Assembly (NCBI RefSeq): GCF_009914755.1 | Contig: NC_060946.1 | DNA length: 64,000 nt | From: the human T2T-CHM13v2.0 reference genome, Homo sapiens | Strand: one strand, 5' to 3' | In this document: in pieces, positions 1 to 30,448 of the stretch | How positions within the stretch are numbered: the first letter of the stretch is position 1 | Layout of the letters: each line of letters opens with the position of its first letter | Notes under the pieces: model-generated | What the model saw: only the letters and a program-made list of their open reading frames with translations | Database searches by the model: none | What the model was told of the DNA's origin: nothing | Position numbers and translations under genes: made by a program

Positions 1-122
1 GAAGGAAGGAAGCAAGCAAGGAAGAAAGGAAGGAAGGAAAGAAGGAAGGAAGGACGGAAGGAAGGAAGGAAGGAAGGAAGGAAGGAAGGAAGGAAGGAAG
101 GAAAGAAGGATGAAAGGAAGGA
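1..122 (+). repeat. GGAA microsatellite (also ~6607-6716 and equivalent positions in each unit)
   Basis: Longest pure run: 12 GGAA at 56-103, 8 at 6666-6697, 9 in the 6601-bp units, 11 at 59452-59495. Confidence 0.97.
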
Positions 123-174
123 GAAAACACCGGTGTTACTAAAACCCCCCAAAAAATGGTTTCCCCCTGTGGGT

Positions 175-510
175 AAGCCTACAATGTGGATGAATCTTGA
201 AAATATTGTTCTACGTGTTATGTCAGTCATAGCAGCTCACCTATTGTGCAATTCCGTTTATAGGAAATGTCCACAATATGGAAATCTATGCATATGGGAT
301 TGATCGCACTAGGTAGTTGCTACCTAGGTCTGAGGGTCAGGGAGAGGGTTTGAGACAGAATGAGGAGTGACTAATGTCTACAGGGTCTTTCTCTGGTCGG
401 GGGTGATAAGACGTTTTACAATGGATTGCGAATTAAAATTGAATGTGCACAACCACAGGTATACTAAAAGCCACTCAATTCATGACCTTTAATGGGGGAA
501 TCTTACGTGG
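175..510 (+). mobile_element. Old L1M (L1MB/L1ME-type) 3' UTR fragment (also ~6770-7105 etc.)
   Basis: tggatgaatcttgaaaatattg...tattgtgcaattccgtttataggaaatgtcca...atactaaaagccactcaatt...ctttaa resembles L1M 3' UTR consensus. Confidence 0.75.
488..493 (-). terminator. Candidate proximal polyadenylation signal ATTAAA
   Basis: tttaat on + strand; on the minus strand a GU-rich stretch (TGTGGTTGTG) follows ~30 nt downstream; lies within the antisense L1M fragment. Confidence 0.3.
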
Positions 511-858
511 CGTAGTCTCATGGAGACCACGGCAGACATAGTGAGAGAGAAAAAGGTGAGTAAATATCTGAAACGGAGGCAGAAACAGAGAGAATGAAAA
601 GCCCTGTGAATGGAAGGGAGAGCGAAAAGGGAAAATGGTCCTATTTACAAATGACAGATGTGAAACTGGGGTTCACATCAACAGTGTCACTGCCAGGAAG
701 GAGGGTCATGCTAGCCATGTCACCGGTAGTGTGGCCCGCAGGGACGCTGACCTGCTGGAGCGTCGTGCCAGCATGGGCTGTGGCAACCACGTGGGCCAGC
801 AGGAGGTTCCCGCTGCACAGCTGTGGGGTGAGGATAGACTGGGTGGTGATATCGGCCA

Positions 859-3800
859 TTACAGAGGCCCTCTTCTGCTGGCAAGAGTGTGACAGTAGCA
901 AGTAGATGGACAGGCCTGCGTGTGAGGACGGAATGCAGGAGGGGTTCTTGTGCGCCTGGGTGTGGGGCCCTCACGGGAACCGTGGAGAAATGGCCAGGTA
1001 ACTGCGTCATGTGGGCTAGTAGATTGGCCAGGGCTTCGAACTGAAGGACGATAACGGGGAGTAGCTGTCAGGCCCTGGGAGTGCCTGAGTGTAAGTGGAG
1101 ATGGGTTTGGGGTCACTGAGGGATGCGTGGGAGCCATCCCTGTATAGGTACAGGTCATAGGGAGATAGTCTCGTGAGGCCTGTGAGTGTCTAGGGTTGTC
1201 CTGGGTGCCTGGGGCTGACTGTGGCAGAAATCTGGGGAAGGCTGGAGAGAAGCTGGGAGACCCAGGAGAGTCCCTGAAGGCAGGGGGTGAAGAGGTGAAA
1301 GAAATGGGGGAGGGTTGCAGTAAGGTCCGTGAGTTTGTAGGTGATTCCTGGGTGCGGGAAGCTGACTCCAGGTGAAATCTGGAGATGGTTGGAGAGTAGC
1401 TGAGAGAGACAGAAGAGTCCCTGAGGGCTGGGGGTGAGAACATGAGGGAGACGGGGGAGTAAGTCAGTGAAATTCGTGAGTTCGGTGGTGTATCGTGGGT
1501 GCCTGGAACTGACTCCAGCTGGAATCTAGAGAAGTTTTGAGAGTAGCTGAAGGAGACACAAGAGTCCCTGTGGGCTGAGGGCAAAGACCTGAGACAGACC
1601 AGGGAGGACCTCAGTGAAGTCTGTGAGTCTGTAGGTGATTCCGGAGTGTGGGAGGCTGACTCCCGCTGAAATCTGGGCGTGGTGGGAGAGTAGCTGGGAC
1701 AGACAGGAGAGTCCCAGGGGGCTGGGGGTGACGACGTGAGAGAGACTGGGGAGTAACTCAGTGAAATTGCTGAGTTGGTTGGTGATACCTGGGTGCCTGG
1801 AACTGACCCCCGCTGAAATCTGGGCATGGTTGGAGAGTAGCTGGGACACACAGGAGAGTCCCTGAGGGCTGGGGGTGAAGACATGAGCGAGACCGGGGAG
1901 TAACTGAGTGAAACTGGTGAGTTTGGTGGTGACTCCGGGGTGCCTGGAACTGACTCCAGCTGAAATGTGGGCGTGGTTGGAGAGTAGCTGGGACAGACAG
2001 GAGAGTCCCTGAGGACTGGTGAAGACATGAGAGAAACTGGAGAGTAATTGAGTGAAATTGGTGAGTTTGGTGGTGATTCCTGGGTGCCTGGAACTGACTC
2101 CCGCTGAAGTGTGGGCGTGGTTGGAGAGTAGCTGGGACACACAGGAGAGTCCCTGAGGGTTGGAGATAAAGACGTGCTAGAGACTGAGGAGTAACTGAGT
2201 GAAATTGGTGAGTTTGGTGGTGATTCCGGGGTGCCTGGAACGGACTCCAGCTGAAATGTGGGCGTGGTTGGAGAGTAGCTGGGACAGACGGGAGAGTCCC
2301 TGAGGGATGGTGAAGACATGAGAGAGACTGGGGAGTAACGCAGTGAAATTGGTGAGTTTGGTGGTGATTTCTGGGTGCCTGCAACGGACTCCCGCTGAAG
2401 TGTGGGCGTGCTTGGAGAGTAGCTGGGACAGACAGGCGAGTCCCTGAGGGTTGGAGATAAAGACGTGCTAGAGACTGAGGAGTAACTGAGTGAAATTGGT
2501 GAGTTTGGTGGTGATTCCGGGGTGCCTGGAACGGACTCCAGCTGAAATGTGGGCGTGGTTGGAGAGTAGCTGGGACAGACGGGAGAGTCCCTGAGGGATG
2601 GTGAAGACATGAGAGAGACTGGGGAGTAACGCAGTGAAATTGGTGAGTTTGGTGGTGATTTCTGGGTGCCTGCAACGGACTCCCGCTGAAGTGTGGGCGT
2701 GCTTGGAGAGTAGCTGGGACAGACAGGCGAGTCCCTGAGGGTTGGAGATAAAGACGTGCTGGAGACTGGGGAGTAACTCAGTGAAAGTGGTGGGCTTGGT
2801 GGTGATCCCAGGGTTCCTGGAACTGACCCGCGCTGAAATGTGGGCGTGGTTGGAGAGTAGCTGGGACAGACTGGAGGGTCCGTAAGGGCTGGGGGTGAAG
2901 ACGTGAGAGAGACTGGCGAGGATCTCACTGAGGTCTGTGAGTTTGTAGGTGTTTCTGGGGTGTGGGGTACAGACTCCCGCTGAAATCTGGGCGTAGTTGG
3001 AGAGTAGCTGGGACAGACAGGAGAGTCATGGGTGGCTGGGGGTGAGCTGCTGGATGATGGCAGTAAGAACATATGGTACATTATTGATGAATGAGGTGAC
3101 TGTGAAGAATCTCCAGAGGAGGACACGGGAGAACACAATGACATGAGTGACTGTCCTGCTTGGTTAGGAAAGGGAAACGTAAAGTTGTGGAATTCTGTTG
3201 ATGATGGATGTGAGAGTGGTGAAGCCCTGCGGGATGATGTAGAGGACTTCCACATCCCTGGTGAGGAGCTGCCCCTTGGGTCTGAGTTTCTGGGAGGGGA
3301 GAGGGAGAAGCTGGGTGAGGCAGGCATGAATCTTGAGGAGTCAGGGCTGGGGGACCGCTCATATTCTCCCGAGACCTGTGAGTCTCTGGGGGACTCCTGG
3401 GTGCATGGGGCTGACTCCCGCAGGAACCTGGGGATGGCTGGAGAGTAACTGGGAGCCACAGGAGGGTCCCTGAGGCCTGGGGGTGAAGAGATGCAAGACA
3501 CAGGGGTGGAGCAGCGTGAGGCTCGTGAGTTTGTAGGTGATTCCTGGGTGTGGGGGGCTGACTCCAGCTGAAATCTGGGGTTGTTTGGAGAGTAGCTGGG
3601 AGACACAGGAGAACCCCCGAGAGCTGGGGGTGAGCTGCTGGGTGATGGCAGTAAGAACATGTGGTATATTATTGATGAACGTGGGGACTCTGAGGAGTCC
3701 TCAGAGGAGGACACGGCAGAGCCCAATGGCTTCATTGATTGCCCATCACGGTGAGGACAGGGAAATGGGAGCTTGTGGGATTCTGGTGATGACAGAGGTG

Positions 3801-3993
3801 AGTGTGGTGAAGCCCTAGGGGATGGTGAATGGTAGTTCCGGATCCCTGGTGAGGAGCTTCCCCTTAAGCCTGAGTTTCTGAGAGGGGAGAGGGAGAAGCT
3901 GGGTGAGGCTCGCATGGACCTTGGGGTGTCCGTGCTGGGGGACCGTTCATAAGAAGAGCCAGACAAGACCCTACTGTTCTTAGGTGCAGACAT
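859..3993 (-). CDS. Ser/Pro-rich CTD-like repeat protein, copy 1 (1044 aa, short C-terminus)
   Basis: Uninterrupted ORF, ATG in ATCATGT context (A at -3), TATA/Inr upstream; one extra base near 865-870 gives ...RRGPL* rather than the longer tail. Confidence 0.7.
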   Translation of the reverse strand: MSAPKNSRVLSGSSYERSPSTDTPRSMRASPSFSLSPLRNSGLRGSSSPGIRNYHSPSPRASPHSPLSSPESHKLPFPCPHRDGQSMKPLGSAVSSSEDSSESPRSSIIYHMFLLPSPSSSPPALGGSPVSPSYSPNNPRFQLESAPHTQESPTNSRASRCSTPVSCISSPPGLRDPPVAPSYSPAIPRFLRESAPCTQESPRDSQVSGEYERSPSPDSSRFMPASPSFSLSPPRNSDPRGSSSPGMWKSSTSSRRASPLSHPSSTEFHNFTFPFPNQAGQSLMSLCSPVSSSGDSSQSPHSSIMYHMFLLPSSSSSPPATHDSPVCPSYSPTTPRFQRESVPHTPETPTNSQTSVRSSPVSLTSSPPALTDPPVCPSYSPTTPTFQRGSVPGTLGSPPSPPLSLSYSPVSSTSLSPTLRDSPVCPSYSPSTPTLQRESVAGTQKSPPNSPISLRYSPVSLMSSPSLRDSPVCPSYSPTTPTFQLESVPGTPESPPNSPISLSYSSVSSTSLSPTLRDSPVCPSYSPSTPTLQRESVAGTQKSPPNSPISLRYSPVSLMSSPSLRDSPVCPSYSPTTPTFQLESVPGTPESPPNSPISLSYSSVSSTSLSPTLRDSPVCPSYSPTTPTLQRESVPGTQESPPNSPISLNYSPVSLMSSPVLRDSPVCPSYSPTTPTFQLESVPGTPESPPNSPVSLSYSPVSLMSSPPALRDSPVCPSYSPTMPRFQRGSVPGTQVSPTNSAISLSYSPVSLTSSPPAPWDSPVCPSYSPTTPRFQRESASHTPESPTDSQTSLRSSLVCLRSLPSAHRDSCVSFSYSQNFSRFQLESVPGTHDTPPNSRISLTYSPVSLMFSPPALRDSSVSLSYSPTISRFHLESASRTQESPTNSRTLLQPSPISFTSSPPAFRDSPGSPSFSPAFPRFLPQSAPGTQDNPRHSQASRDYLPMTCTYTGMAPTHPSVTPNPSPLTLRHSQGLTATPRYRPSVRSPGQSTSPHDAVTWPFLHGSREGPTPRRTRTPPAFRPHTQACPSTCYCHTLASRRGPL
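1190..3050. repeat. Coding VNTR of 144/147-bp monomers (present in every unit)
   Basis: Motif ggagagtagctgggaca recurs every 144-147 bp; ten CPSYSP repeats plus three degenerate C-terminal ones here and two more at ~3390-3640. tggagataaagacgtgct at 2161 and 2452 gives a 291-bp dimer period. Confidence 0.97.
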
Positions 3994-4054
3994 GATTAGG
4001 AAACCTGCAGCTCCCAGGGGCCCCCACTAATGTTCTAACTCGCAGAAGGAAGGA

Positions 4055-4113
4055 GTGTGTGTGCGTGTGTGCGTGTGCGTGTGTGTGTGTGTGTGTTTGT
4101 GTGTGTGCGGTGT
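4055..4113 (+). repeat. (TG)n/(CG) microsatellite in the predicted 5' leader
   Basis: gtgtgtgtgcgtgtgtgcgtgtgcgtgtgt...; 4 bp longer in copies 4-8. Confidence 0.95.
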
Positions 4114-4157
4114 GAGGTATGGGCCCCTTAAGGAAATGGAAATCAACCAACCAATGG

Positions 4158-4183
4158 GACAGACAGACAGACAGACAGACAGA
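4158..4183 (+). repeat. (GACA)n microsatellite
   Basis: gacagacagacagacagacagacaga; expanded with a gtca interruption in copy 10 (~63253-63287). Confidence 0.95.
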
Positions 4184-4304
4184 GATTCACTTGCCCAAGT
4201 GTTCTGTCCTGTCCTCTGAATCCGCTTTCAAGTCGCAAGACGCTGTGAGCTCCAAGTCCACGCAGAGTCCGCCAAACGCTCCGGCCGCTGATCCGCTCCG
4301 CGAA

Positions 4305-4375
4305 GATCTGAGTACAGGCCAGCCAGGGTGGGTTTAAATAGCCTCGGGCGCAGCCTAGCAGCGGAAAGGGCCGAG
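4305..4375 (-). promoter_or_regulatory. Putative Pol II core promoter: TATA (4340-4333), Inr (+1 at 4309), GC-box position (4368-4375); repeated in every unit
   Basis: Minus strand reads TATTTAAA then TCAGATC (YYANWYY) with its A 31 nt after the first T of TATA; locally CpG-rich. Equivalent +1 positions: 10902, 17495, 24092, 30693, 37294, 43895, 50496, 57091, 63412. Confidence 0.7.
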
Positions 4376-4837
4376 CTTCACTCCTCCTTTCCATCAGTCA
4401 CCCCCAACTTTCCCAGGCTACACCTCGTAGGAAACTGTTCTCCTGCTTTGATTTCATGCGCCACCTTTGGGACAATCTAAGAACTTACAGGTTTTCTTGG
4501 CCAGATTTATTAGGAATTGTATGCACTGAAACACTGAAAACCAACTAGTGGTTCTGTGCTTCCCACGTTGTGGTTTTGACACCAGCAGCATCCTTGCCAC
4601 AATCAAACCCCGGAGATCCGCAGATCTGTGTTGTAACAAGACCTCCCCCTGACCCTGATGCATGGCAGTTGAAGAAGTCTTTCCGTGTAAGCGAAAAGAC
4701 TTTGAAGAAAAGGTGGAGATATGCGTAGTATAAACATTCTTTGGCTCTGGAACCACGTAGAGACTTGGGAGCCAGTTGGGTGGAGCATTCGTTGGATGAG
4801 GGTGCTCGGGTTAGGAATATCAAGGTGTTTCTCCAGA

Positions 4838-4848
4838 TAATCCAATCA
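4838..4848 (+). promoter_or_regulatory. DUX4-type double-homeodomain motif TAATCCAATCA (all 10 units)
   Basis: Matches the DUX4 consensus TAAYYBAATCA; also at 11431, 18024, 24621, 31222, 37823, 44424, 51025, 57620, 63941. Binding not demonstrated. Confidence 0.5.
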
Positions 4849-4929
4849 TCTAATTAAGATTCCAGTTATGCTCATCTGTTTTAAAATTCCGTTTGGGTAA
4901 ATTCTTTTAGTCAGACTGAGAATGGCAAA

Positions 4930-5390
4930 GCCTCAACCCCAATTTCCAGGGAGGGTGGAGAGCCTCAGGTGGAGTTGATCACCAATAGCCTATGGTTTAA
5001 CCCATCATGCCTATAGAATGAGGTCTCCATCAAAACCCAAAAGGACTGGGTTCAGAGAGCTTCTGGATAACACTTCCTGGAAGGTAGTGCACCCCTCCCC
5101 GCATGCCGGGCCCCACATTTATTTCTGAACTTTGTGCAATGTCCGCTAAAATACAACGGCAAATGTAAGTGTTTCCCTGCGTGCTGTGAGCTCTTCCAGC
5201 AAATGAATGCAACTAAATCTGGGAGTGGTGGCAACCTGATTTATAGCCAGTTGCTGAGAAGCACAGGTAAAACAACGTAGGGCTTCCCATTGTTATTGGT
5301 GTGGGAGGCCTGTCTGGCGGGACTCGGCCCTTTGGAATCTAATGCTATGTCCCGGTAGATAGCGTCACCATTGAATTAGAAGACACACAT
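4930..5390 (+). mobile_element. MER21-family LTR fragment (repeated per unit)
   Basis: Recognised from memory of the consensus: gttgatcaccaat...catgccta...aaaacccaaaaggactgggttcagagagctt, gtaagtgtttccctg...tgtgagc, ggtagatagcgtc...attgaattagaagacac. Subfamily not determined. Confidence 0.75.
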
Positions 5391-5559
5391 ATGTGGAGAA
5401 TAATCTTTCTGGTCATTTACTGCATGTCATATTTACAATATGTAATCAAATTCTTTATCCTGACCTTATGGCACCTGGGTTTAGGACCATGATTTGAACC
5501 AAACGTTGGTCTGTCACTTTCTGAGTTTGAAACTTTATTTTGCCTTTAGCGTTTTGCTA

Positions 5560-5860
5560 TTGCTTTTTCGTTTTCTTTTGTTTCGTTTCGTTTCTAAGTT
5601 CTGGGGTATATGTGCAGGATGTGCAGATTTGTTACTAAGGTAAACGTGTGCCATGGTGGTTTGCTGCACCTGTCAACCCGTCACCTAGGTATTAAGCCCA
5701 GCATGCAGTAGCTGTTTTTCTTAACGCTCTGCCTCCCGAAAGGCCCCAGTGTGTGTTGTTCCCCTTCCTGTGTCCATGGGATCTCACTTTTCAGCTCCCA
5801 TTATAAGTGAGAAGGTGGCGTTTGGTTTTCTTTCCCTGGATTAGTTTGCTGACGATAATG
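5560..5860 (-). mobile_element. L1PA 3'-end fragment with decayed poly(A) tail (repeated per unit)
   Basis: T-rich tail then gttctggggtatatgtgcaggatgtgcag...gtgtgccatggtggtttgctgcacc...cacctaggtattaagcccagcatgca...cccagtgtgtgttgttcccc, typical antisense L1PA (roughly L1PA8-10) 3' UTR. Confidence 0.9.
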
Positions 5861-5877
5861 ACCACACATCACCACTG

Positions 5878-6235
5878 TTTTTGTTTTTTAGTATAAAGAG
5901 TAGTATTTTATTGAATAAGATTTGCTCACAGAAAAATAAGCTTAAATCTACAATGAATGCCAGACCCTACAGCAGAAAGCAATTTTCTCACTTTTCCACA
6001 CACAATGGTTCCTACTAAGTGAAAAAAAAGCCATAAAATTTCATTCACAAATGTACTACTCTGTCTCAAAACATCTCACGTAATCATGCACTGTACTAAA
6101 GCCATCAGATCAGTTCTTCAGTCAGGTTAAAGAAGTATCCCTCTAATAACTGACTTTTATAATGCTATCAATATCCACTCCCAATCAGTCTGCCATTGTT
6201 AATGGTGTACAGCATTACTGAATACAACGGAATTG
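5878..6235 (-). other. Poly(A)-tailed mRNA-like 3' end (possible retrocopied 3' UTR), repeated per unit
   Basis: Minus strand AATAAA at 5912-5907, then 17 nt, then an A-rich tract at 5889-5878; preceded by AU-rich non-TE-looking sequence. Source gene not recognised. Confidence 0.5.
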
Positions 6236-6249
6236 ATGACGCCCATATC

Positions 6250-6387
6250 CACAGACAAACCGTGACTTATGATGGTTTGATTTATGATTTTTCAACGTTA
6301 TGATGGGTTTATTGGAATATTAGATTCGTTTCTGAGTTACACTGGGTTTATGAGTATGCGACCCTACACTCCAGAAACAGCTGTATA
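6250..6387. mobile_element. MER47-like Tigger-derived MITE (repeated per unit)
   Basis: gacttatgatggtttgatttatgatttttcaacgttatgatgggtttatt matches CpG-decayed MER47 terminal sequence. Confidence 0.65.
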
Positions 6388-7313
6388 AGGAAAAACAGGT
6401 GTACCTAATAAAAATATGCTTAGTGACTTGGGATAAACCAATAGATGTTCACAAGTGATGGAGAGCCGTGAAAGAGAGATAGCGGTAAATAGTTACAATA
6501 ACACAATTTTCCTGCACCTGTCGAGGATTTCCCCCAAAAAACGCAGAATGTGGGATGCACCTAAGGCATATGAAAGAGAGAGGGCAGAAGGAGTAAGAGA
6601 GAAATAGGAGGAAGGAAGGAAGGAAGCAAGGAAGAAAGGAAGGAAGGAAAGAAGGAAGGAAGGACGGAAGGAAGGAAGGAAGGAAGGAAGGAAGGAAAGA
6701 AGGATGAAAGGAAGGAGAAAACACCGGTGTTACTAAAACCCCCCAAAAAATGGTTTCCCCCTGTGGGTAAGCCTACAATGTGGATGAATCTTGAAAATAT
6801 TGTGCTACGTGTTATGTCAGTCATAGCAGCTCACCTATTGTGCAATTCCGTTTATAGGAAATGTCCACAATATGGAAATCTATGCATATGGGATTGATCG
6901 CACTAGGTAGTTGCTACCTAGGGCTGAGGGTCAGGGAGAGGGTTTGAGACAGAATGAGGAGTGACTAATGTCTACAGGGTCTTTCTCTGGTCGGGGGTGA
7001 TAAGACGTTTTACAATGGATTGCGAATTAAAATTGAATGTGCACAACCACAGGTATACTAAAAGCCACTCAATTCATGACCTTTAATGGGGGAATCTTAC
7101 GTGGCGTAGTCTCATGGAGACCACGGCAGACATAGTGAGAGAGAAAAAGGTGAGTAAATATCTGAAACGGAGGCAGAAACAGAGAGAATGAAAAGCCCTG
7201 TGAATGGAAGGGAGAGCGAAAAGGGAAAATGGTCCTATTTACAAATGACAGATGTGAAACTGGGGTTCACATCAACAGTGTCACTGCCAGGAAGGAGGGT
7301 CATGCTAGCCATG

Positions 7314-10300
7314 TCACCGGTAGTGTGGCCCGCAGGGACGCCGACCTGCTGGAGCGTCGTGCCAGCATGGGCTGTGGCAACCACGTGGGCCAGCAGGAGG
7401 TTCCCGCTGCACAGCTGTGGGGTGAGGATAGACTGGGTGGTGATATCGGCCATTACAGGGGCCTCTTCTGCTGGCAAGAGTGTGACAGTAGCAAGTAGAT
7501 GGACAGGCCTGCGTGTGAGGACGGAATGCAGGAGGGGTTCTTGTGCGCCTGGGTGTGGGGCCCTCACGGGAACCGTGGAGAAATGGCCAGGTAACTGCGT
7601 CATGTGGGCTAGTAGATTGGCCAGGGCTTCGAACTGAAGGACGATAATGGGGAGTAGCTGTCAGGCCCTGGGAGTGCCTGAGTGTAAGTGGAGATGGGTT
7701 TGGGGTCACTGAGGGATGCGTGGGAGCCATCCCTGTATAGGTACAGGTCATAGGGAGATAGTCTCGTGAGGCCTGTGAGTGTCTAGGGTTGTCCTGGGTG
7801 CCTGGGGCTGACTGTGGCAGAAATCTGGGGAAGGCTGGAGAGAAGCTGGGAGACCCAGGAGAGTCCCTGAAGGCAGGGGGTGAAGAGGTGAAAGAAATGG
7901 GGGAGGGTTGCAGTAAGGTCCGTGAGTTTGTAGGTGATTCCTGGGTGCGGGAAGCTGACTCCAGGTGAAATCTGGAGATGGTTGGAGAGTAGCTGAGAGA
8001 GACAGAAGAGTCCCTGAGGGCTGGGGGTGAGAACATGAGGGAGACGGGGGAGTAAGTCAGTGAAATTCGTGAGTTCGGTGGTGTATCGTGGGTGCCTGGA
8101 ACTGACTCCAGCTGGAATCTAGAGAAGTTTTGAGAGTAGCTGAAGGAGACACAAGAGTCCCTGTGGGCTGAGGGCAAAGACCTGAGACAGACCAGGGAGG
8201 ACCTCAGTGAAGTCTGTGAGTCTGTAGGTGATTCCGGAGTGTGGGAGGCTGACTCCCGCTGAAATCTGGGCGTGGTGGGAGAGTAGCTGGGACAGACAGG
8301 AGAGTCCCAGGGGGCTGGGGGTGACGACGTGAGAGAGACTGGGGAGTAACTCAGTGAAATTGCTGAGTTGGTTGGTGATACCTGGGTGCCTGGAACTGAC
8401 CCCCGCTGAAATCTGGGCATGGTTGGAGAGTAGCTGGGACACACAGGAGAGTCCCTGAGGGCTGGGGGTGAAGACATGAGCGAGACCGGGGAGTAACTGA
8501 GTGAAACTGGTGAGTTTGGTGGTGACTCCGGGGTGCCTGGAACTGACTCCAGCTGAAATGTGGGCGTGGTTGGAGAGTAGCTGGGACAGACAGGAGAGTC
8601 CCTGAGGACTGGTGAAGACATGAGAGAGACTGGAGAGTAATTGAGTGAAATTGGTGAGTTTGGTGGTGATTCCTGGGTGCCTGGAACTGACTCCCGCTGA
8701 AGTGTGGGCGTGGTTGGAGAGTAGCTGGGACACACAGGAGAGTCCCTGAGGGTTGGAGATAAAGACGTGCTAGAGACTGAGGAGTAACTGAGTGAAATTG
8801 GTGAGTTTGGTGGTGATTCCGGGGTGCCTGGAACGGACTCCAGCTGAAATGTGGGCGTGGTTGGAGAGTAGCTGGGACAGACGGGAGAGTCCCTGAGGAA
8901 TGGTGAAGACATGAGAGAGACTGGGGAGTAACGCAGTGAAATTGGTGAGTTTGGTGGTGATTTCTGGGTGCCTGCAACGGACTCCCGCTGAAGTGTGGGC
9001 GTGCTTGGAGAGTAGCTGGGACAGACAGGCGAGTCCCTGAGGGTTGGAGATAAAGACGTGCTAGAGACTGAGGAGTAACTGAGTGAAATTGGTGAGTTTG
9101 GTGGTGATTCCGGGGTGCCTGGAACGGACTCCAGCTGAAATGTGGGCGTGGTTGGAGAGTAGCTGGGACAGACGGGAGAGTCCCTGAGGGATGGTGAAGA
9201 CATGAGAGAGACTGGGGAGTAACGCAGTGAAATTGGTGAGTTTGGTGGTGATTTCTGGGTGCCTGCAACAGACTCCCGCTGAAGTGTGGGCGTGCTTGGA
9301 GAGTAGCTGGGACAGACAGGCGAGTCCCTGAGGGTTGGAGATAAAGACGTGCTGGAGACTGGGGAGTAACTCAGTGAAAGTGGTGGGCTTGGTGGTGATC
9401 CCAGGGTTCCTGGAACTGACCCGCGCTGAAATGTGGGCGTGGTTGGAGAGTAGCTGGGACAGACTGGAGGGTCCGTAAGGGCTGGGGGTGAAGACGTGAG
9501 AGAGACTGGCGAGGATCTCACTGAGGTCTGTGAGTTTGTAGGTGTTTCTGGGGTGTGGGGTACAGACTCCCGCTGAAATCTGGGCGTAGTTGGAGAGTAG
9601 CTGGGACAGACAGGAGAGTCATGGGTGGCTGGGGGTGAGCTGCTGGATGATGGCAGTAAGAACATATGGTACATTATTGATGAATGAGGTGACTGTGAAG
9701 AATCTCCAGAGGAGGACACGGGAGAACACAATGACATGAGTGACTGTCCTGCTTGGTTAGGAAAGGGAAACGTAAAGTTGTGGAATTCTGTTGATGATGG
9801 ATGTGAGAGTGGTGAAGCCCTGCGGGATGATGTAGAGGACTTCCACATCCCTGGTGAGGAGCTGCCCCTTGGGTCTGAGTTTCTGGGAGGGGAGAGGGAG
9901 AAGCTGGGTGAGGCAGGCATGAATCTTGAGGAGTCAGGGCTGGGGGACCGCTCATATTCTCCCGAGACCTGTGAGTCTCTGGGGGACTCCTGGGTGCATG
10001 GGGCTGACTCCCGCAGGAACCTGGGGATGGCTGGAGAGTAACTGGGAGCCACAGGAGGGTCCCTGAGGCCTGGGGGTGAAGAGATGCAAGACACAGGGGT
10101 GGAGCAGCGTGAGGCTCGTGAGTTTGTAGGTGATTCCTGGGTGTGGGGGGCTGACTCCAGCTGAAATCTGGGGTTGTTTGGAGAGTAGCTGGGAGACACA
10201 GGAGAACCCCCGAGAGCTGGGGGTGAGCTGCTGGGTGATGGCAGTAAGAACATGTGGTATATTATTGATGAACGTGGGGACTCTGAGGAGTCCTCAGAGG

Positions 10301-10586
10301 AGGACACGGCAGAGCCCAATGGCTTCATTGATTGCCCATCACGGTGAGGACAGGGAAATGGGAGCTTGTGGGATTCTGGTGATGACAGAGGTGAGTGTGG
10401 TGAAGCCCTAGGGGATGGTGAATGGTAGTTCCGGATCCCTGGTGAGGAGCTTCCCCTTAAGCCTGAGTTTCTGAGAGGGGAGAGGGAGAAGCTGGGTGAG
10501 GCTCGCATGGACCTTGGGGTGTCCGTGCTGGGGGACCGTTCATAAGAAGAGCCAGACAAGACCCTACTGTTCTTAGGTGCAGACAT
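7314..10586 (-). CDS. Ser/Pro-rich CTD-like repeat protein, copy 2 (1090 aa)
   Basis: Intact ORF with 48/49-aa repeats containing YSPTTPT-type heptads. Confidence 0.7.
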   Translation of the reverse strand: MSAPKNSRVLSGSSYERSPSTDTPRSMRASPSFSLSPLRNSGLRGSSSPGIRNYHSPSPRASPHSPLSSPESHKLPFPCPHRDGQSMKPLGSAVSSSEDSSESPRSSIIYHMFLLPSPSSSPPALGGSPVSPSYSPNNPRFQLESAPHTQESPTNSRASRCSTPVSCISSPPGLRDPPVAPSYSPAIPRFLRESAPCTQESPRDSQVSGEYERSPSPDSSRFMPASPSFSLSPPRNSDPRGSSSPGMWKSSTSSRRASPLSHPSSTEFHNFTFPFPNQAGQSLMSLCSPVSSSGDSSQSPHSSIMYHMFLLPSSSSSPPATHDSPVCPSYSPTTPRFQRESVPHTPETPTNSQTSVRSSPVSLTSSPPALTDPPVCPSYSPTTPTFQRGSVPGTLGSPPSPPLSLSYSPVSSTSLSPTLRDSPVCPSYSPSTPTLQRESVAGTQKSPPNSPISLRYSPVSLMSSPSLRDSPVCPSYSPTTPTFQLESVPGTPESPPNSPISLSYSSVSSTSLSPTLRDSPVCPSYSPSTPTLQRESVAGTQKSPPNSPISLRYSPVSLMSSPFLRDSPVCPSYSPTTPTFQLESVPGTPESPPNSPISLSYSSVSSTSLSPTLRDSPVCPSYSPTTPTLQRESVPGTQESPPNSPISLNYSPVSLMSSPVLRDSPVCPSYSPTTPTFQLESVPGTPESPPNSPVSLSYSPVSLMSSPPALRDSPVCPSYSPTMPRFQRGSVPGTQVSPTNSAISLSYSPVSLTSSPPAPWDSPVCPSYSPTTPRFQRESASHTPESPTDSQTSLRSSLVCLRSLPSAHRDSCVSFSYSQNFSRFQLESVPGTHDTPPNSRISLTYSPVSLMFSPPALRDSSVSLSYSPTISRFHLESASRTQESPTNSRTLLQPSPISFTSSPPAFRDSPGSPSFSPAFPRFLPQSAPGTQDNPRHSQASRDYLPMTCTYTGMAPTHPSVTPNPSPLTLRHSQGLTATPHYRPSVRSPGQSTSPHDAVTWPFLHGSREGPTPRRTRTPPAFRPHTQACPSTCYCHTLASRRGPCNGRYHHPVYPHPTAVQREPPAGPRGCHSPCWHDAPAGRRPCGPHYR

Positions 10587-13500
10587 GATTAGGAAACCTG
10601 CAGCTCCCAGGGGCCCCCACTAATGTTCTAACTCGCAGAAGGAAGGAGTGTGTGTGCGTGTGTGCGTGTGCGTGTGTGTGTGTGTGTGTTTGTGTGTGTG
10701 CGGTGTGAGGTATGGGCCCCTTAAGGAAATGGAAATCAACCAACCAATGGGACAGACAGACAGACAGACAGACAGAGATTCACTTGCCCAAGTGTTCTGT
10801 CCTGTCCTCTGAATCCGCTTTCAAGTCGCAAGACGCTGTGAGCTCCAAGTCCACGCAGAGTCCGCCAAACGCTCCGGCCGCTGATCCGCTCCGCGAAGAT
10901 CTGAGTACAGGCCAGCCAGGGTGGGTTTAAATAGCCTCGGGCGCAGCCTAGCAGCGGAAAGGGCCGAGCTTCACTCCTCCTTTCCATCAGTCACCCCCAA
11001 CTTTCCCAGGCTACACCTCGTAGGAAACTGTTCTCCTGCTTTGATTTCATGCGCCACCTTTGGGACAATCTAAGAACTTACAGGTTTTCTTGGCCAGATT
11101 TATTAGGAATTGTATGCACTGAAACACTGAAAACCAACTAGTGGTTCTGTGCTTCCCACGTTGTGGTTTTGACACCAGCAGCATCCTTGCCACAATCAAA
11201 CCCCGGAGATCCGCAGATCTGTGTTGTAACAAGACCTCCCCCTGACCCTGATGCATGGCAGTTGAAGAAGTCTTTCCGTGTAAGCGAAAAGACTTTGAAG
11301 AAAAGGTGGAGATATGCGTAGTATAAACATTCTTTGGCTCTGGAACCACGTAGAGACTTGGGAGCCAGTTGGGTGGAGCATTCGTTGGATGAGGGTGCTC
11401 GGGTTAGGAATATCAAGGTGTTTCTCCAGATAATCCAATCATCTAATTAAGATTCCAGTTATGCTCATCTGTTTTAAAATTCCGTTTGGGTAAATTCTTT
11501 TAGTCAGACTGAGAATGGCAAAGCCTCAACCCCAATTTCCAGGGAGGGTGGAGAGCCTCAGGTGGAGTTGATCACCAATAGCCTATGGTTTAACCCATCA
11601 TGCCTATAGAATGAGGTCTCCATCAAAACCCAAAAGGACTGGGTTCAGAGAGCTTCTGGATAACACTTCCTGGAAGGTAGTGCACCCCTCCCCGCATGCC
11701 GGGCCCCACATTTATTTCTGAACTTTGTGCAATGTCCGCTAAAATACAACGGCAAATGTAAGTGTTTCCCTGCGTGCTGTGAGCTCTTCCAGCAAATGAA
11801 TGCAACTAAATCTGGGAGTGGTGGCAACCTGATTTATAGCCAGTTGCTGAGAAGCACAGGTAAAACAACGTAGGGCTTCCCATTGTTATTGGTGTGGGAG
11901 GCCTGTCTGGCGGGACTCGGCCCTTTGGAATCTAATGCTATGTCCCGGTAGATAGCGTCACCATTGAATTAGAAGACACACATATGTGGAGAATAATCTT
12001 TCTGGTCATTTACTGCATGTCATATTTACAATATGTAATCAAATTCTTTATCCTGACCTTATGGCACCTGGGTTTAGGACCATGATTTGAACCAAACGTT
12101 GGTCTGTCACTTTCTGAGTTTGAAACTTTATTTTGCCTTTAGCGTTTTGCTATTGCTTTTTCGTTTTCTTTTGTTTCGTTTCGTTTCTAAGTTCTGGGGT
12201 ATATGTGCAGGATGTGCAGATTTGTTACTAAGGTAAACGTGTGCCATGGTGGTTTGCTGCACCTGTCAACCCGTCACCTAGGTATTAAGCCCAGCATGCA
12301 GTAGCTGTTTTTCTTAACGCTCTGCCTCCCGAAAGGCCCCAGTGTGTGTTGTTCCCCTTCCTGTGTCCATGGGATCTCACTTTTCAGCTCCCATTATAAG
12401 TGAGAAGGTGGCGTTTGGTTTTCTTTCCCTGGATTAGTTTGCTGACGATAATGACCACACATCACCACTGTTTTTGTTTTTTAGTATAAAGAGTAGTATT
12501 TTATTGAATAAGATTTGCTCACAGAAAAATAAGCTTAAATCTACAATGAATGCCAGACCCTACAGCAGAAAGCAATTTTCTCACTTTTCCACACACAATG
12601 GTTCCTACTAAGTGAAAAAAAAGCCATAAAATTTCATTCACAAATGTACTACTCTGTCTCAAAACATCTCACGTAATCATGCACTGTACTAAAGCCATCA
12701 GATCAGTTCTTCAGTCAGGTTAAAGAAGTATCCCTCTAATAACTGACTTTTATAATGCTATCAATATCCACTCCCAATCAGTCTGCCATTGTTAATGGTG
12801 TACAGCATTACTGAATACAACGGAATTGATGACGCCCATATCCACAGACAAACCGTGACTTATGATGGTTTGATTTATGATTTTTCAACGTTATGATGGG
12901 TTTATTGGAATATTAGATTCGTTTCTGAGTTACACTGGGTTTATGAGTATGCGACCCTACACTCCAGAAACAGCTGTATAAGGAAAAACAGGTGTACCTA
13001 ATAAAAATATGCTTAGTGACTTGGGATAAACCAATAGATGTTCACAAGTGATGGAGAGCCGTGAAAGAGAGATAGCGGTAAATAGTTACAATAACACAAT
13101 TTTCCTGCACCTGTCGAGGATTTCCCCCAAAAAACGCAGAATGTGGGATGCACCTAAGGCATATGAAAGAGAGAGGGCAGAAGGAGTAAGAGAGAAATAG
13201 GAGGAAGGAAGGAAGGAAGCAAGGAAGAAAGGAAGGAAGGAAAGAAGGAAGGAAGGACGGAAGGAAGGAAGGAAGGAAGGAAGGAAGGAAAGAAGGATGA
13301 AAGGAAGGAGAAAACACCGGTGTTACTAAAACCCCCCAAAAAATGGTTTCCCCCTGTGGGTAAGCCTACAATGTGGATGAATCTTGAAAATATTGTGCTA
13401 CGTGTTATGTCAGTCATAGCAGCTCACCTATTGTGCAATTCCGTTTATAGGAAATGTCCACAATATGGAAATCTATGCATATGGGATTGATCGCACTAGG

Positions 13501-13906
13501 TAGTTGCTACCTAGGGCTGAGGGTCAGGGAGAGGGTTTGAGACAGAATGAGGAGTGACTAATGTCTACAGGGTCTTTCTCTGGTCGGGGGTGATAAGACG
13601 TTTTACAATGGATTGCGAATTAAAATTGAATGTGCACAACCACAGGTATACTAAAAGCCACTCAATTCATGACCTTTAATGGGGGAATCTTACGTGGCGT
13701 AGTCTCATGGAGACCACGGCAGACATAGTGAGAGAGAAAAAGGTGAGTAAATATCTGAAACGGAGGCAGAAACAGAGAGAATGAAAAGCCCTGTGAATGG
13801 AAGGGAGAGCGAAAAGGGAAAATGGTCCTATTTACAAATGACAGATGTGAAACTGGGGTTCACATCAACAGTGTCACTGCCAGGAAGGAGGGTCATGCTA
13901 GCCATG

Positions 13907-16900: not shown

Positions 16901-17179
16901 GGCAGAGCCCAATGGCTTCATTGATTGCCCATCACGGTGAGGACAGGGAAATGGGAGCTTGTGGGATTCTGGTGATGACAGAGGTGAGTGTGGTGAAGCC
17001 CTAGGGGATGGTGAATGGTAGTTCCGGATCCCTGGTGAGGAGCTTCCCCTTAAGCCTGAGTTTCTGAGAGGGGAGAGGGAGAAGCTGGGTGAGGCTCGCA
17101 TGGACCTTGGGGTGTCCGTGCTGGGGGACCGTTCATAAGAAGAGCCAGACAAGACCCTACTGTTCTTAGGTGCAGACAT
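13907..17179 (-). CDS. Ser/Pro-rich CTD-like repeat protein, copy 3 (1090 aa)
   Basis: Intact ORF; translation appears identical to copy 2. Confidence 0.7.
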   Translation of the reverse strand: MSAPKNSRVLSGSSYERSPSTDTPRSMRASPSFSLSPLRNSGLRGSSSPGIRNYHSPSPRASPHSPLSSPESHKLPFPCPHRDGQSMKPLGSAVSSSEDSSESPRSSIIYHMFLLPSPSSSPPALGGSPVSPSYSPNNPRFQLESAPHTQESPTNSRASRCSTPVSCISSPPGLRDPPVAPSYSPAIPRFLRESAPCTQESPRDSQVSGEYERSPSPDSSRFMPASPSFSLSPPRNSDPRGSSSPGMWKSSTSSRRASPLSHPSSTEFHNFTFPFPNQAGQSLMSLCSPVSSSGDSSQSPHSSIMYHMFLLPSSSSSPPATHDSPVCPSYSPTTPRFQRESVPHTPETPTNSQTSVRSSPVSLTSSPPALTDPPVCPSYSPTTPTFQRGSVPGTLGSPPSPPLSLSYSPVSSTSLSPTLRDSPVCPSYSPSTPTLQRESVAGTQKSPPNSPISLRYSPVSLMSSPSLRDSPVCPSYSPTTPTFQLESVPGTPESPPNSPISLSYSSVSSTSLSPTLRDSPVCPSYSPSTPTLQRESVAGTQKSPPNSPISLRYSPVSLMSSPFLRDSPVCPSYSPTTPTFQLESVPGTPESPPNSPISLSYSSVSSTSLSPTLRDSPVCPSYSPTTPTLQRESVPGTQESPPNSPISLNYSPVSLMSSPVLRDSPVCPSYSPTTPTFQLESVPGTPESPPNSPVSLSYSPVSLMSSPPALRDSPVCPSYSPTMPRFQRGSVPGTQVSPTNSAISLSYSPVSLTSSPPAPWDSPVCPSYSPTTPRFQRESASHTPESPTDSQTSLRSSLVCLRSLPSAHRDSCVSFSYSQNFSRFQLESVPGTHDTPPNSRISLTYSPVSLMFSPPALRDSSVSLSYSPTISRFHLESASRTQESPTNSRTLLQPSPISFTSSPPAFRDSPGSPSFSPAFPRFLPQSAPGTQDNPRHSQASRDYLPMTCTYTGMAPTHPSVTPNPSPLTLRHSQGLTATPHYRPSVRSPGQSTSPHDAVTWPFLHGSREGPTPRRTRTPPAFRPHTQACPSTCYCHTLASRRGPCNGRYHHPVYPHPTAVQREPPAGPRGCHSPCWHDAPAGRRPCGPHYR

Positions 17180-20100: not shown

Positions 20101-20499
20101 TACCTAGGGCTGAGGGTCAGGGAGAGGGTTTGAGACAGAATGAGGAGTGACTAATGTCTACAGGGTCTTTCTCTGGTCGGGGGTGATAAGACGTTTTACA
20201 ATGGATTGCGAATTAAAATTGAATGTGCACAACCACAGGTATACTAAAAGCCACTCAATTCATGACCTTTAATGGGGGAATCTTACGTGGCGTAGTCTCA
20301 TGGAGACCACGGCAGACATAGTGAGAGAGAAAAAGGTGAGTAAATATCTGAAACGGAGGCAGAAACAGAGAGAATGAAAAGCCCTGTGAATGGAAGGGAG
20401 AGCGAAAAGGGAAAATGGTCCTATTTACAAATGACAGATGTGAAACTGGGGTTCACATCAACAGTGTCACTGCCAGGAAGGAGGGTCATGCTAGCCATG

Positions 20500-23772: not shown

Positions 23773-23847
23773 GATTAGGAAACCTGCAGCTCCCAGGGGC
23801 CCCCACTAATGTTCTAACTCGCAGAAGGAAGGAGTGTGTGTGCGTGT

Positions 23848-23879
<32 letters not shown>

Positions 23880-24150
23880 TTGTGTGTGTGCGGTGTGAGG
23901 TATGGGCCCCTTAAGGAAATGGAAATCAACCAACCAATGGGACAGACAGACAGACAGACAGACAGAGATTCACTTGCCCAAGTGTTCTGTCCTGTCCTCT
24001 GAATCCGCTTTCAAGTCGCAAGACGCTGTGAGCTCCAAGTCCACGCAGAGTCCGCCAAACGCTCCGGCCGCTGATCCGCTCCGCGAAGATCTGAGTACAG
24101 GCCAGCCAGGGTGGGTTTAAATAGCCTCGGGCGCAGCCTAGCAGCGGAAA

Positions 24151-24159
24151 GGGCGGAGC
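24151..24159 (+). promoter_or_regulatory. Sp1/KLF GC box GGGCGGAGC (intact in copies 4-10)
   Basis: gggcggagc about 60 bp upstream of the predicted TSS; copies 1-3 read gggccgagc. Confidence 0.55.
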
Positions 24160-30373: not shown

Positions 30374-30448
30374 GATTAGGAAACCTGCAGCTCCCAGGGG
30401 CCCCCACTAATGTTCTAACTCGCAGAAGGAAGGAGTGTGTGTGCGTGT

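What the first reader, a model, noticed from the sequence alone, without database searches (positions are those of the whole stretch)
1650..3050. The 49-aa repeat is exactly seven heptads in CTD register
Seen: 147 bp = 7 x 21 bp. Parsing from Tyr gives YSPTTPT / FQLESVP / GTPESPP / NSPISLS / YS(P/S)VSST / SLSPTLR / DSPVCPS. Four of seven heptads carry x-S-P at positions 1-3 in phase, and the two Tyr are spaced 28 and 21 residues. DSPVCPS-YSPTTPT forms a di-heptad with P3 and P6 in both. Known: the di-heptad is the functional unit of the CTD. Inference: the monomer arose from a degenerate heptad array, by descent from a POLR2A CTD segment or by convergence.
Basis: partly seen in the sequence, partly recalled or inferred. 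Interest (0 to 1): 0.8.

Follow-up and report, generated by a model that had tools for sequence, protein, structure and literature searches.

The report
ACRO1 satellite: CTD-like coding repeat
The 147-base repeat is the known human ACRO1 satellite, whose seven-residue Pol II tail-like rhythm is real and already published, but it appears to be the expanded coding repeat of an old, unnamed mammalian gene, not a copy of the polymerase gene.

Summary
Its 7-residue / 21-base sub-period exceeds every composition-matched shuffle for the consensus monomer. It matches the real POLR2A CTD at 23 of 49 residues, against 14.2±1.3 for shuffles.

This is not new. The 147-bp unit is the ACRO1 satellite inside the 6.6-kb ACRO/ACRE macrosatellite. 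Boots et al. 2020 (PMC7714431) already reported the 23/49 CTD match, the heptad character and possible descent from CTD mRNA.

What I add:
- The periodicity lies only at codon positions 1 and 2.
- DNA similarity to POLR2A is not clearly above what the shared amino acids force (p=0.14).
- The repeat is part of a 1,055-1,339-codon open frame with a conserved start and a conserved Cys-rich tail.
- That frame has protein homologues in marmoset, two baleen whales and several unnamed records. Some of these carry in-register 46-49-residue units.
- CTD-likeness is strongest in human and weaker in the homologues.

My reading is that this is an old, fast-evolving S/P-rich coding repeat that converged on CTD-like grammar, not a primate POLR2A retrocopy. 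Evidence that the frame is still under selection in humans is moderate only.

The parts
1..64000 (.). About 9.7 tandem units of the 6.6-kb ACRO/ACRE macrosatellite
   Evidence: The 147-bp arrays and the (GT)n, (GACA)n and (AGGA)n tracts recur at 6593-6607-bp spacing. The hub annotation places the window on the chr22 short arm.
1199..3045 (.). ACRO1 147-bp satellite array of unit 1 (12.6 copies, with 291- and 438-bp higher orders)
   Evidence: TRF. The 147-bp unit and the 6-kb host repeat fit the published descriptions (PMC7714431; 10.64898/2025.12.22.696095).
2422..2568 (-).
   Evidence: Translation and the monomer list.
859..4026 (-). Stop-to-stop open frame of 1055 codons (P0001). It is 1101 codons in most other units and 1290-1339 in the distal chr21/chr15 arrays.
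   Evidence: The non-array parts have 0 stops in this frame, 3-10 in each of the other two sense frames and 5-41 in each antisense frame.
3991..3993 (-). Candidate start codon (MSAPKN...), conserved as MSASKN (marmoset), MSASEE (whales) and MSAPEE (P0041)
   Evidence: The context is CTAATCATGT and the 360 nt upstream hold no ATG.
3373..3594 (-). Short ACRO1-like block (one and a half monomers) inside the N-terminal part of the frame. The N-terminal 'unique segment plus monomers' module occurs twice.
   Evidence: Monomer cuts and the protein print. It fits the '256 bp array' of PMC7714431.
862..1251 (-). C-terminal non-repeat tail with the conserved Cys-rich motif (CPSTCYCHTLA...)
   Evidence: BLASTP to P0041 (E 1e-20), P0009 (E 5e-6) and P0031.
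4333..4340 (-). TATA-like TATTTAAA about 347 nt upstream of the ATG
   Evidence: Read from the sequence. Its role as a promoter is inferred.
4838..4848 (+). One exact match per unit to a DUX4-type site (TAAYCYAATCA; consensus recalled from memory), about 845 nt upstream of the ATG
   Evidence: 10 matches, one per unit, against 0.08 expected. They count as one independent event. The literature says DUX4 activates ACRO1 transcription (PMC8990217).

Best explanation
The 147-bp repeat is the ACRO1 satellite of the ACRO/ACRE macrosatellite. On the minus strand it is the 49-codon repeat of a long intronless open frame. That frame has an N-terminal module with FxFPFP and (I)MYHMF anchors, then S/P-rich 46-49-residue units, then a Cys-rich tail. 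It descends from an unnamed, fast-evolving mammalian protein-coding gene.

The 7-residue rhythm is a property of the codons: [ST]-P motifs fall at heptad positions 2-3 and 5-6. It was sharpened in primates, and the 147-bp unit was then multiplied. Because 147 is a multiple of 3, unequal exchange keeps the frame. The whole 6.6-kb unit was in turn multiplied and homogenised on the acrocentric short arms.

The likeness to the Pol II CTD is real but convergent. It is not the result of a POLR2A copy made in primates.

Shown here: the periodicity, its codon phase, the CTD likeness, the open frame, and the homologues. Inferred: the coding origin of the unit, convergence, and present-day function.
For: Periodicity:
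- Protein and DNA periodicity exceed the shuffles.
- It sits only at codon positions 1 and 2. Identical pairs are 85, 74 and 36 at positions 1, 2 and 3, against chance values of 36.8, 52.9 and 37.5. Only 175 of 116,280 column subsets score as low as position 3.

CTD likeness:
- 23/49 against 14.2±1.3 for shuffles, with a maximum of 21 in 20,000.
- All 13 PDB sequences matched at E<=10 are RPB1 (best E 9.8e-7; in the one alignment shown the match lies in the CTD).
- No clear DNA excess over the protein-forced level: 85 against 81.3±2.8, p=0.14.

Homologues:
- Marmoset P0005 and whale P0006 came from 5 hits among 8000 scored candidates.
- BLASTP of P0001 gives E 8e-16 to P0006, 1e-20 and 1e-18 to P0041, 6e-37 to P0031, and 5e-6 and 4e-5 to P0009.
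- 47 representative proteins have E<=1e-3 to the N-terminal 206 residues.
- A monomer HMM finds in-register units in P0005, P0031 and P0041.
- None of 6 homologues has any Pfam domain.

Trends across the family:
- CTD-likeness falls from human to marmoset to the other homologues.
- The 14/21/28-residue ladder of [ST]P spacings is seen only in primates.

Frame maintenance, lineage A (chr22/15/13/3) against lineage B (distal chr21/chr15):
- 1524 non-array coding bases show 90 mismatches, 0 gaps and 0 stops.
- The intergenic 3284 bases show 7.43% mismatch and 10 gap events. That predicts 4.64 gaps in the coding part, so P(0)=0.0097.
- P(no stop after 90 random substitutions) = 0.038.
Against: - dN/dS between lineages A and B is 0.67, and wrong frames give 0.67 and 1.61, so substitutions do not show clear protein constraint.
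- If only gap events outside simple sequence are counted (2 of 10), the indel test loses significance (P=0.40).
- The chr19 copy and one chr13 copy are frame-broken, and 3 of the 46 listed matches (all on chr3) carry a TAA.
- Within the array, other frames also stay open for up to 738-817 codons, so openness there is cheap.
- RefSeq annotates no gene in this window (hub note).
- Boots et al. found no stable ACRO1 transcript in HeLa cells, and sense ACRO1 inserts abolished reporter RNA.
- The whale and marmoset proteins are computational models. The species of P0008-10, P0031 and P0041 are unknown to me.
- In favour of descent from the CTD: serine codon families by heptad column are TCN 42/42, TCN 39/39 and AGY 15/17 in ACRO1. 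In POLR2A they are TCN 36/42, TCN 36/49 and AGY 22/26. Individual monomers give synonymous-shuffle p values as low as 0.01.
Confidence: 0.65

Rival explanations
1. Descent from POLR2A. A piece of CTD-coding sequence or mRNA of seven heptads was copied and then amplified as ACRO1. The copying happened either in primates, as Boots et al. 2020 suggested, or much earlier in the ancestor of this gene family.
For: - 23/49 residues and 85/147 bases match the real CTD exon in frame, far above order shuffles.
- All 13 PDB matches are RPB1.
- The serine codon families by heptad column match POLR2A.
- All homologues are slightly more CTD-like than their own shuffles (z 5-9).
Against: - DNA identity is not clearly above the level forced by the protein (p=0.14).
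- The Pfam CTD model gives no hit, and no other RPB1 sequence adjoins the repeat.
- The unit is embedded in a frame with non-primate homologues.
- CTD-likeness is highest in human, not in the more distant homologues.
- A 42% base difference from the CTD would need far more time than the primate era at ordinary neutral rates (rate recalled; this is inference).
Confidence: 0.1
2. Plain non-coding satellite. The open frame, the heptads and the 'homologues' are by-products of a C/T-rich strand, a monomer length divisible by 3, and gene predictors run on low-complexity DNA.
For: - Other frames of the array are also open for hundreds of codons.
- dN/dS is not distinguishable from neutral.
- No RefSeq gene is annotated in the window.
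- Proteins near-identical to the human frame occur in unnamed 'ena/lgn' records. They look like the spurious proteins that human contamination creates in microbial assemblies, as described in PMC6581058.
Against: - The non-array parts have 0 stops only in this frame.
- The periodicity is confined to codon positions 1 and 2.
- The start, the N-terminal anchors and the Cys-rich tail are conserved at 34-45% identity with composition-corrected E values from 1e-18 to 6e-37.
- Two human lineages about 6-7% apart keep the frame without stop or indel.
Confidence: 0.13
3. The pattern is shaped at the RNA level. ACRO1 sense RNA is a Pol II-binding aptamer that stops its own transcription (Boots et al. 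2020), and the codon-like rhythm reflects RNA-CTD binding preferences, not translation.
For: Genomic SELEX enrichment (1029 sense against 1 antisense mappings) and strand-specific, in-cis loss of reporter RNA with 0.3-1.4 kb ACRO1 inserts (PMC7714431, passages read).
Against: - It does not explain the conserved non-repeat N- and C-terminal parts, the conserved ATG, or the absence of stops and indels there.
- It does not explain why the third codon position carries no periodicity.
- It can coexist with a coding origin.
Confidence: 0.1

Closest known systems
ACRO1 satellite within the ACRO composite / 'ACRE' macrosatellite of human acrocentric short arms
   Same: A 147-bp monomer, a roughly 6-kb host unit with one long and one short ACRO1 block, and a chr22 short-arm location. 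It occurs in near-identical arrays on chr15, 13, 21 and 3.
   Different: Nothing; this is a member. I could not run a Dfam/Repbase consensus comparison.
C-terminal domain (YSPTSPS heptads) of RNA polymerase II subunit RPB1 (POLR2A)
   Same: Period 7, a heptad consensus Y-S-P-x-S-(P/L)-(S/R/T), [ST]-P at positions 2-3 and 5-6, and the same serine codon families by column. 23/49 residues are identical, and RPB1 is the only kind of PDB sequence matched.
   Different: - Heptads 2 and 6 have lost the motif, and T4 and S7 are poorly kept.
- The repeat unit is 49 residues, not 7.
- There is no RPB1 core and no Pfam CTD hit.
- DNA similarity is not clearly beyond the codon-forced level.
- It sits in a different gene family that has its own conserved ends.
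Macrosatellite-borne, DUX4-linked intronless ORFs such as DUX4 in D4Z4 (kind recalled from general knowledge)
   Same: A multi-kb tandem unit, each copy with an intact long open frame. The literature reports a 4-cell-stage RNA peak and activation by DUX4 (PMC6545021, PMC8990217). One DUX4-type motif lies upstream in each unit.
   Different: There is no recognisable domain, the frame contains its own internal satellite, there is no evidence of a protein product, and constraint on the amino-acid sequence is weak or absent.

Membership tests
ACRO1 / ACRO composite macrosatellite | 147-bp tandem monomer | tested here: met
   TRF gives period 147 and 12.6 copies at 1199-3045, repeated in all ten units.
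ACRO1 / ACRO composite macrosatellite | About 6-kb higher-order unit holding one 1.3-2.4-kb and one roughly 256-bp ACRO1 block | tested here: met
   The unit is 6593-6607 bp, the long block is 1.85 kb, and the short block lies at 3373-3594. The definition is taken from PMC7714431.
ACRO1 / ACRO composite macrosatellite | Location on acrocentric short arms, homogenised between chromosomes | tested here: met
   The window is on the chr22 short arm (hub). Copies 97-100% identical at the protein level lie on chr15, chr21 and chr3 and on chr13.
ACRO1 / ACRO composite macrosatellite | Match to the Dfam/Repbase ACRO1 consensus and to the L1PA10, MER21B and L1MB8 parts | not testable with these tools
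   No repeat library is on hand. The composition is taken from 10.64898/2025.12.22.696095.
RNA polymerase II CTD heptad repeat (Pfam PF05001) | Tandem heptads with consensus YSPTSPS | tested here: inconclusive
   Period 7 and 23/49 identity are well above shuffles, but only 4-5 of 7 heptads keep x-[ST]-P and 2 keep Tyr.
RNA polymerase II CTD heptad repeat (Pfam PF05001) | Match to the Pfam model | tested here: not met
   PF05001 does not appear at E<=10. The 14-position model also failed to ring anywhere in the whole-genome search, POLR2A included, so this is a weak test.
RNA polymerase II CTD heptad repeat (Pfam PF05001) | Attached to the RPB1 catalytic core | tested here: not met
   The frame and 6 homologues have no RPB1 domain. 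POLR2A itself lies on chr17.
RNA polymerase II CTD heptad repeat (Pfam PF05001) | Nucleotide-level homology to POLR2A beyond codon-forced matches | tested here: inconclusive
   85/147 against 81.3±2.8 for synonymous shuffles, p=0.14; individual monomers give p 0.01-0.36. The serine codon families do match.
Macrosatellite-embedded DUX4-induced gene (D4Z4-like kind) | Intact ORF in most units | tested here: met
   43 of the 46 listed matches have no internal stop. The open frames are 1055-1149 codons and 1290-1339 codons in the distal arrays.
Macrosatellite-embedded DUX4-induced gene (D4Z4-like kind) | Purifying selection on the product | tested here: inconclusive
   Lineages A and B show no stop (P=0.038) and no indel (P=0.0097, or 0.40 on the strict count), but dN/dS is 0.67 and no different from a wrong frame.
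Macrosatellite-embedded DUX4-induced gene (D4Z4-like kind) | Transcript and protein in cleavage-stage embryos or DUX4-expressing cells | not testable with these tools
   RNA is known from the literature only. I found no protein evidence.

The most novel reading that the evidence does not exclude
The ACRO macrosatellite would be a multi-copy gene array, not a plain satellite. Each 6.6-kb unit would carry a DUX4-responsive promoter and an intact frame for a roughly 1,100-residue disordered protein, with some 80-90 CTD-like heptads and about 74 [ST]-P sites in the array part alone. The frame would be conserved as an ORF from whales to humans.

It would be made at the 4-cell stage and act as a mimic of the Pol II tail. 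It could compete for CTD kinases, phosphatases or prolyl isomerase, or join polymerase condensates, at embryonic genome activation. The same sense RNA would throttle its own transcription, as Boots et al. showed.
Probability: 0.12. Interest if true: 0.85.

Novelty: already known. Interest (0 to 1): 0.45.

Why it matters
ACRO is described as the repeat class most specific to great-ape acrocentric short arms, rivalling rDNA. [quoted passage not shown] The CTD likeness has been read so far either as a curiosity or as a hint that ACRO1 came from Pol II mRNA.

If the repeat is instead the expanded coding repeat of an older mammalian gene, two things change. The 'primate-specific' label would hold only at the DNA level. 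And the arrays would become candidates for a cleavage-stage gene family of the D4Z4/DUX4 kind. That can be tested with existing embryo and DUX4-induction data mapped to complete genomes.

Tried and rejected
- The Pfam CTD model searched over the whole genome rang nowhere, not even at POLR2A, so it carries no weight.
- My first shuffle script against the CTD timed out. I replaced it with a vectorised version using rotation 0 only.
- My first indel comparisons double-counted flanks that overlap by one repeat period and inflated gaps inside microsatellites. Their P=4.5e-5 is wrong. The global alignment replaces it (P=0.0097, or 0.40 on the strict count).
- dN/dS is uninformative, because wrong-frame controls give similar values.
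- I looked in the human unit for a DUX-like C-terminal exon using whale P0007. Nothing matched residues 520-598.
- A scan of genome contigs with P0009 to obtain homologue DNA gave 600 pattern matches, none confirmed. No cross-species codon analysis was therefore possible.
- A third word-indexed protein search (P0009 residues 40-200) found only 3 proteins and no names.
- Structure prediction, complex prediction and the ESM Atlas were not used. The protein is low-complexity and a model would not bear on the question.
- I did not see the supplements of PMC7714431 (SI Fig. S3, on ACRE composition and primate conservation). They may bear on the 'primate-specific' claim.
Full report
**What is there**

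The window is a tandem array of a roughly 6.6-kb unit. TRF finds the same 147-bp array ten times, first at 1199-3045 (12.6 copies, 81% matches, with 291- and 438-bp higher orders). The spacings are 6593 (x3), 6601 (x5) and 6607 (x1) bp, and each unit also holds (GT)n, (GACA)n and (AGGA)n tracts. The hub places the window on the short arm of chr22 in T2T-CHM13.

A 147-bp monomer inside a 6-kb unit on acrocentric short arms is the published description of the ACRO1 satellite. Its host repeat is called 'ACRE' by Boots et al. 2020 (PMC7714431, passages read). A 2025-26 preprint calls it 'ACRO', made of ACRO1, L1PA10, MER21B and L1MB8, and describes it as primate-specific (10.64898/2025.12.22.696095, passages read). 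I could not compare it with a Dfam consensus.

**The observation**

All later statistics read the window file by coordinates.

Protein level:
- For the column consensus of the ten 49-residue monomers, identical pairs within heptad columns number 43. Residue shuffles give 17.9±3.5 and shuffles that keep [ST]P dipeptides give 18.2±3.8. None of 20,000 of either kind reaches 43.
- Circular identities at lags 7, 14 and 21 are 16, 15 and 12 of 49. All other lags give 0-10.
- Over the ten monomers, which are related, p runs from <5e-5 to 0.073.

DNA level: lags 21, 63 and 42 are the top three of 73 lags (67, 65 and 63 of 147; the next best is 58). Their sum, 195, is reached by 0 of 5000 base or codon shuffles.

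**Already in print**

Boots et al. 2020 state the following:
- ACRO1 translated in silico matches a CTD fragment at 23 of 49 residues.
[quoted passage not shown] They also showed that sense ACRO1 RNA is enriched in a Pol II SELEX and stops reporter transcription in cis.

**Comparison with the real CTD**

I located POLR2A in the window's own assembly through Pfam RNA_pol_Rpb1_7 (chr17, E 2.8e-29). I then fetched the downstream region. Its CTD is a 399-codon open stretch with 50 Y[ST]P heptad starts.

- Without gaps, the consensus monomer matches a CTD window at 23/49. Shuffles give 14.2±1.3, with a maximum of 21 in 20,000.
- phmmer against PDB sequences returns 13 matches at E<=10. All are RPB1 (best E 9.8e-7), and in the one alignment shown the match lies in the CTD.
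- At the DNA level the best in-frame match is 85/147. Codon-order shuffles give 62.6±2.3. Identities at codon positions 1, 2 and 3 are 36, 29 and 20 of 49.
When codons are shuffled only among positions with the same amino acid, the expectation is 81.3±2.8, so 85 gives p=0.14. Individual monomers give p from 0.01 to 0.36.
- The small excess comes mainly from serine codon families. ACRO1 uses TCN at heptad column 2 (42/42) and column 5 (39/39), and AGY at column 7 (15/17). POLR2A does the same (TCN 36/42, TCN 36/49, AGY 22/26). This favours descent, but it rests on two AGY positions per monomer.
- The Pfam CTD model does not match the frame. That model is too short to be a strong test, since it also missed POLR2A in the genome search.

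**Codon phase of the periodicity**

I stacked the consensus as 7 x 21 bases. Identical pairs sum to 85 at first codon positions, 74 at second and 36 at third. The chance expectations are 36.8, 52.9 and 37.5. Only 175 of the 116,280 possible sets of seven columns score as low as the third positions.

So the 21-base rhythm is carried by the amino-acid-determining bases and is absent from wobble positions. A recently decayed 21-bp DNA satellite would not show this. Heptads that diverged as codons would.

**The frame around the repeat**

- The minus strand is open from 4026 to 859, which is 1055 codons. That extends well beyond the array.
- It holds two copies of a module (a roughly 117-residue non-repeat segment followed by monomers), then the long array, then a 130-176-residue non-repeat tail.
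- In the non-array parts this frame has 0 stops. The other two sense frames have 3-10 each and the antisense frames 5-41 each.
- Inside the array, openness means little. Other frames stay open for up to 339 codons here and 738-817 codons in another lineage.
- A search of the assembly scored 44 of 2380 candidates and listed 46 matches on chr22, 15, 3 and 21, at 97-100% identity. Their open frames are 1055-1149 codons, and three of them carry a TAA. Further copies on chr13 and chr19 appear.
- From the ATG at 3993 (MSAPKN) the frame in unit 2 is 1090 codons. The 360-nt leader has no ATG, a TATTTAAA lies about 347 nt upstream, and an ATTAAA lies 229 nt after the stop.

**Homologues outside the human genome**

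- The word-indexed search found 5 proteins among 8000 scored candidates.
  - Three are near-identical to the human frame and come from unnamed records. They fit the human-contamination proteins described in PMC6581058.
  - One is an 832-residue marmoset model and one a 633-residue model from Balaenoptera ricei. Their sources name both 'DNA-directed RNA polymerase II subunit RPB1'. Neither has any RPB1 domain, so the name is a misnomer based on CTD likeness.
- Further searches added a gray-whale protein and unnamed proteins P0008-P0010.
- The exhaustive representative search with the N-terminal 206 residues gave 47 proteins at E<=1e-3, of which 33 are at E<=1e-10.
- Composition-corrected BLASTP of the human frame gives:
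  - E 8e-16 to the whale protein, starting at H(N/D)FxFPFP ... S(I)MYHMF;
  - E 1e-20 (C-terminal tail, CPSTCYCHTLA) and E 1e-18 (N-terminus including MSAP) to the 355-residue P0041, which has only one repeat unit;
  - E 6e-37 to P0031;
  - E 5e-6 and 4e-5 to P0009.
- An HMM of the human monomers finds full-length, in-register units in marmoset (7 of 11 domains at E<1e-15), in P0031 (6 of 10 domains significant, best 7e-11) and once in P0041 (6.5e-9). In the whale protein and P0009 it finds only weak partial matches.

The 49-residue unit is therefore part of a gene-like frame that is older than the human arrays. By the whale evidence, the frame as a whole is not restricted to primates. I do not know the species of the unnamed records, and the whale and marmoset proteins are computational models.

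I found no paper stating such homology. The searches were ACRO1 with acrocentric/147, with 'open reading frame', with DUX4, and with 'protein coding'/'conserved', and 'RPB1-like' with acrocentric. [quoted passage not shown] 2020)' (PMC12746033).

**Descent or convergence**

- Lag-7 identity is z=8.4 in the human array, 4.4 in marmoset, 3.7 in whale and 2.0 in P0008 and P0009.
- The ladder of [ST]P spacings at 14, 21 and 28 is seen only in the primates. The others show 7, 11, 18 and 22.
- The mean best identity of 49-residue windows to the CTD is 19.6 in the human array, 15.5 in marmoset and 14.1-15.0 in whale, P0009, P0031 and P0041. Each is 1.5-3 residues above its own shuffles.

A weak CTD-like spacing of SP motifs is thus common to the family, and the strict register is a primate sharpening. 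Decay from a CTD ancestor should make all lineages about equally CTD-like. The gradient argues for convergence, followed by amplification of an especially regular unit.

A primate-era copy is also hard to square with 62 of 147 base differences from the CTD. That argument is inference and uses a recalled neutral rate. An ancient capture of CTD sequence by the family's ancestor cannot be excluded.

**Is the frame still constrained in humans?**

There are three lineages, about 5-7% apart:
- A: the chr22/15/13/3 arrays.
- B: the distal chr21/chr15 arrays, with frames of 1339 and 1290 codons ending at the same stop as A.
- C: a single chr19 copy, frame-broken into 697 + 290 codons.

A against B:
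- The 1524 non-array coding bases show 90 mismatches (5.9%), no gap and no stop.
- The whole intergenic region, aligned globally, shows 244 mismatches in 3284 bases (7.43%) and 10 gap events, 8 of them not multiples of three.
- At that rate 4.64 gaps are expected in the coding part (P of none = 0.0097). However, 8 of the 10 events lie in simple sequence. The strict count of 2 events gives P=0.40.
- Ninety random substitutions leave the frame stop-free in 3.8% of simulations.
- dN/dS is 0.67, but the wrong frames give 0.67 and 1.61, so it decides nothing.
- My earlier figure of P=4.5e-5 was an error caused by double-counted flanks.

Taken together, there is moderate evidence that the frame is maintained and none that the amino-acid sequence is constrained. 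That pattern would fit a disordered, fast-evolving protein. It would also fit weak evidence overall.

**Expression context, from the literature only**

- ACRO1 RNA peaks at the 4-cell stage (PMC6545021).
- DUX4 is said to activate ACRO1 transcription (PMC8990217 introduction; PMC12776069).
- Each unit has one exact match to a DUX4-type motif about 845 nt upstream of the ATG: 10 matches against 0.08 expected, counting as one independent event. The consensus is recalled, not taken from a call.
- Against easy expression, Boots et al. saw no stable transcript in HeLa cells and found that sense ACRO1 blocks elongation.

**Verdict**

- The feature is the known ACRO1 satellite, and its CTD likeness is already published.
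- Descent from POLR2A is not supported. I rate it at about 0.1, including an ancient version.
- The best reading, at about 0.65, is an old S/P-rich coding repeat of an unnamed mammalian gene that converged on CTD-like heptads and was then amplified as a satellite inside a macrosatellite.
- Whether a protein is made today is open.

Noticed in passing
P0007 (gray whale homologue), residues about 515-598; human loci L049-L051: The gray-whale model ends in a tail that matches 148 places in the human assembly at 40-56% identity. They lie on the acrocentric short arms, at chr1 128 Mb and at the end of chr10, among others. The one locus I opened has a double-homeobox, DUX4-like ORF next to the match. 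So the whale gene model joins the ACRO-type frame to a DUX-family C-terminal exon, which suggests the two genes are neighbours in whales. The human ACRO unit has no such exon.
   Followed up: partly
G000 chr3, 13, 15, 21, 22 (coordinates): On five chromosomes a DUX4-like match with the same 385-codon open frame lies 334-389 kb from the nearest listed ACRO copy. Examples are chr22 3,516,609 against 3,857,378 and chr3 95,379,288 against 95,754,042. The two are probably parts of one shared segmental duplication.
   Followed up: no
window 859-861 and the same place in two other chr22 units (L004, L005): Unit 1 of the window has a stop that shortens the frame from 1101 to 1055 codons. Most other units read through to a stop 46 codons later.
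   Followed up: partly
window 1-122, 6609-6716 and once per unit: Each unit holds a (GGAA/AGGA)n tract of 27-31 units. ACRO1 RNA is reported to be raised in plasma vesicles of Ewing sarcoma patients, although EWS:FLI1 transfection did not change ACRO1 in that paper (PMC11060741).
   Followed up: no
window 53983-55829 and 60590-62142: The last two units have altered arrays. One has a monomer consensus one base shorter, and the other has 10.6 instead of 12.6 copies. The final unit spacing is 6607 bp.
   Followed up: no
P0005 (marmoset) and P0006 (Balaenoptera ricei): Their sources name both 'DNA-directed RNA polymerase II subunit RPB1', yet they have no Pfam domain at all. The name is an annotation artefact of CTD-like low complexity.
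   Followed up: yes
G000 chr19:47,280,000-47,286,600 (L034, L048): A solitary copy of about 1.1 ACRO units lies outside the acrocentric arms. It is the best human match to the whale protein (E 4.1e-9). Its frame is broken into 697 + 290 codons, and it is about 10% diverged in the flanks. It could be either the ancestral locus or a dispersed copy.
   Followed up: partly
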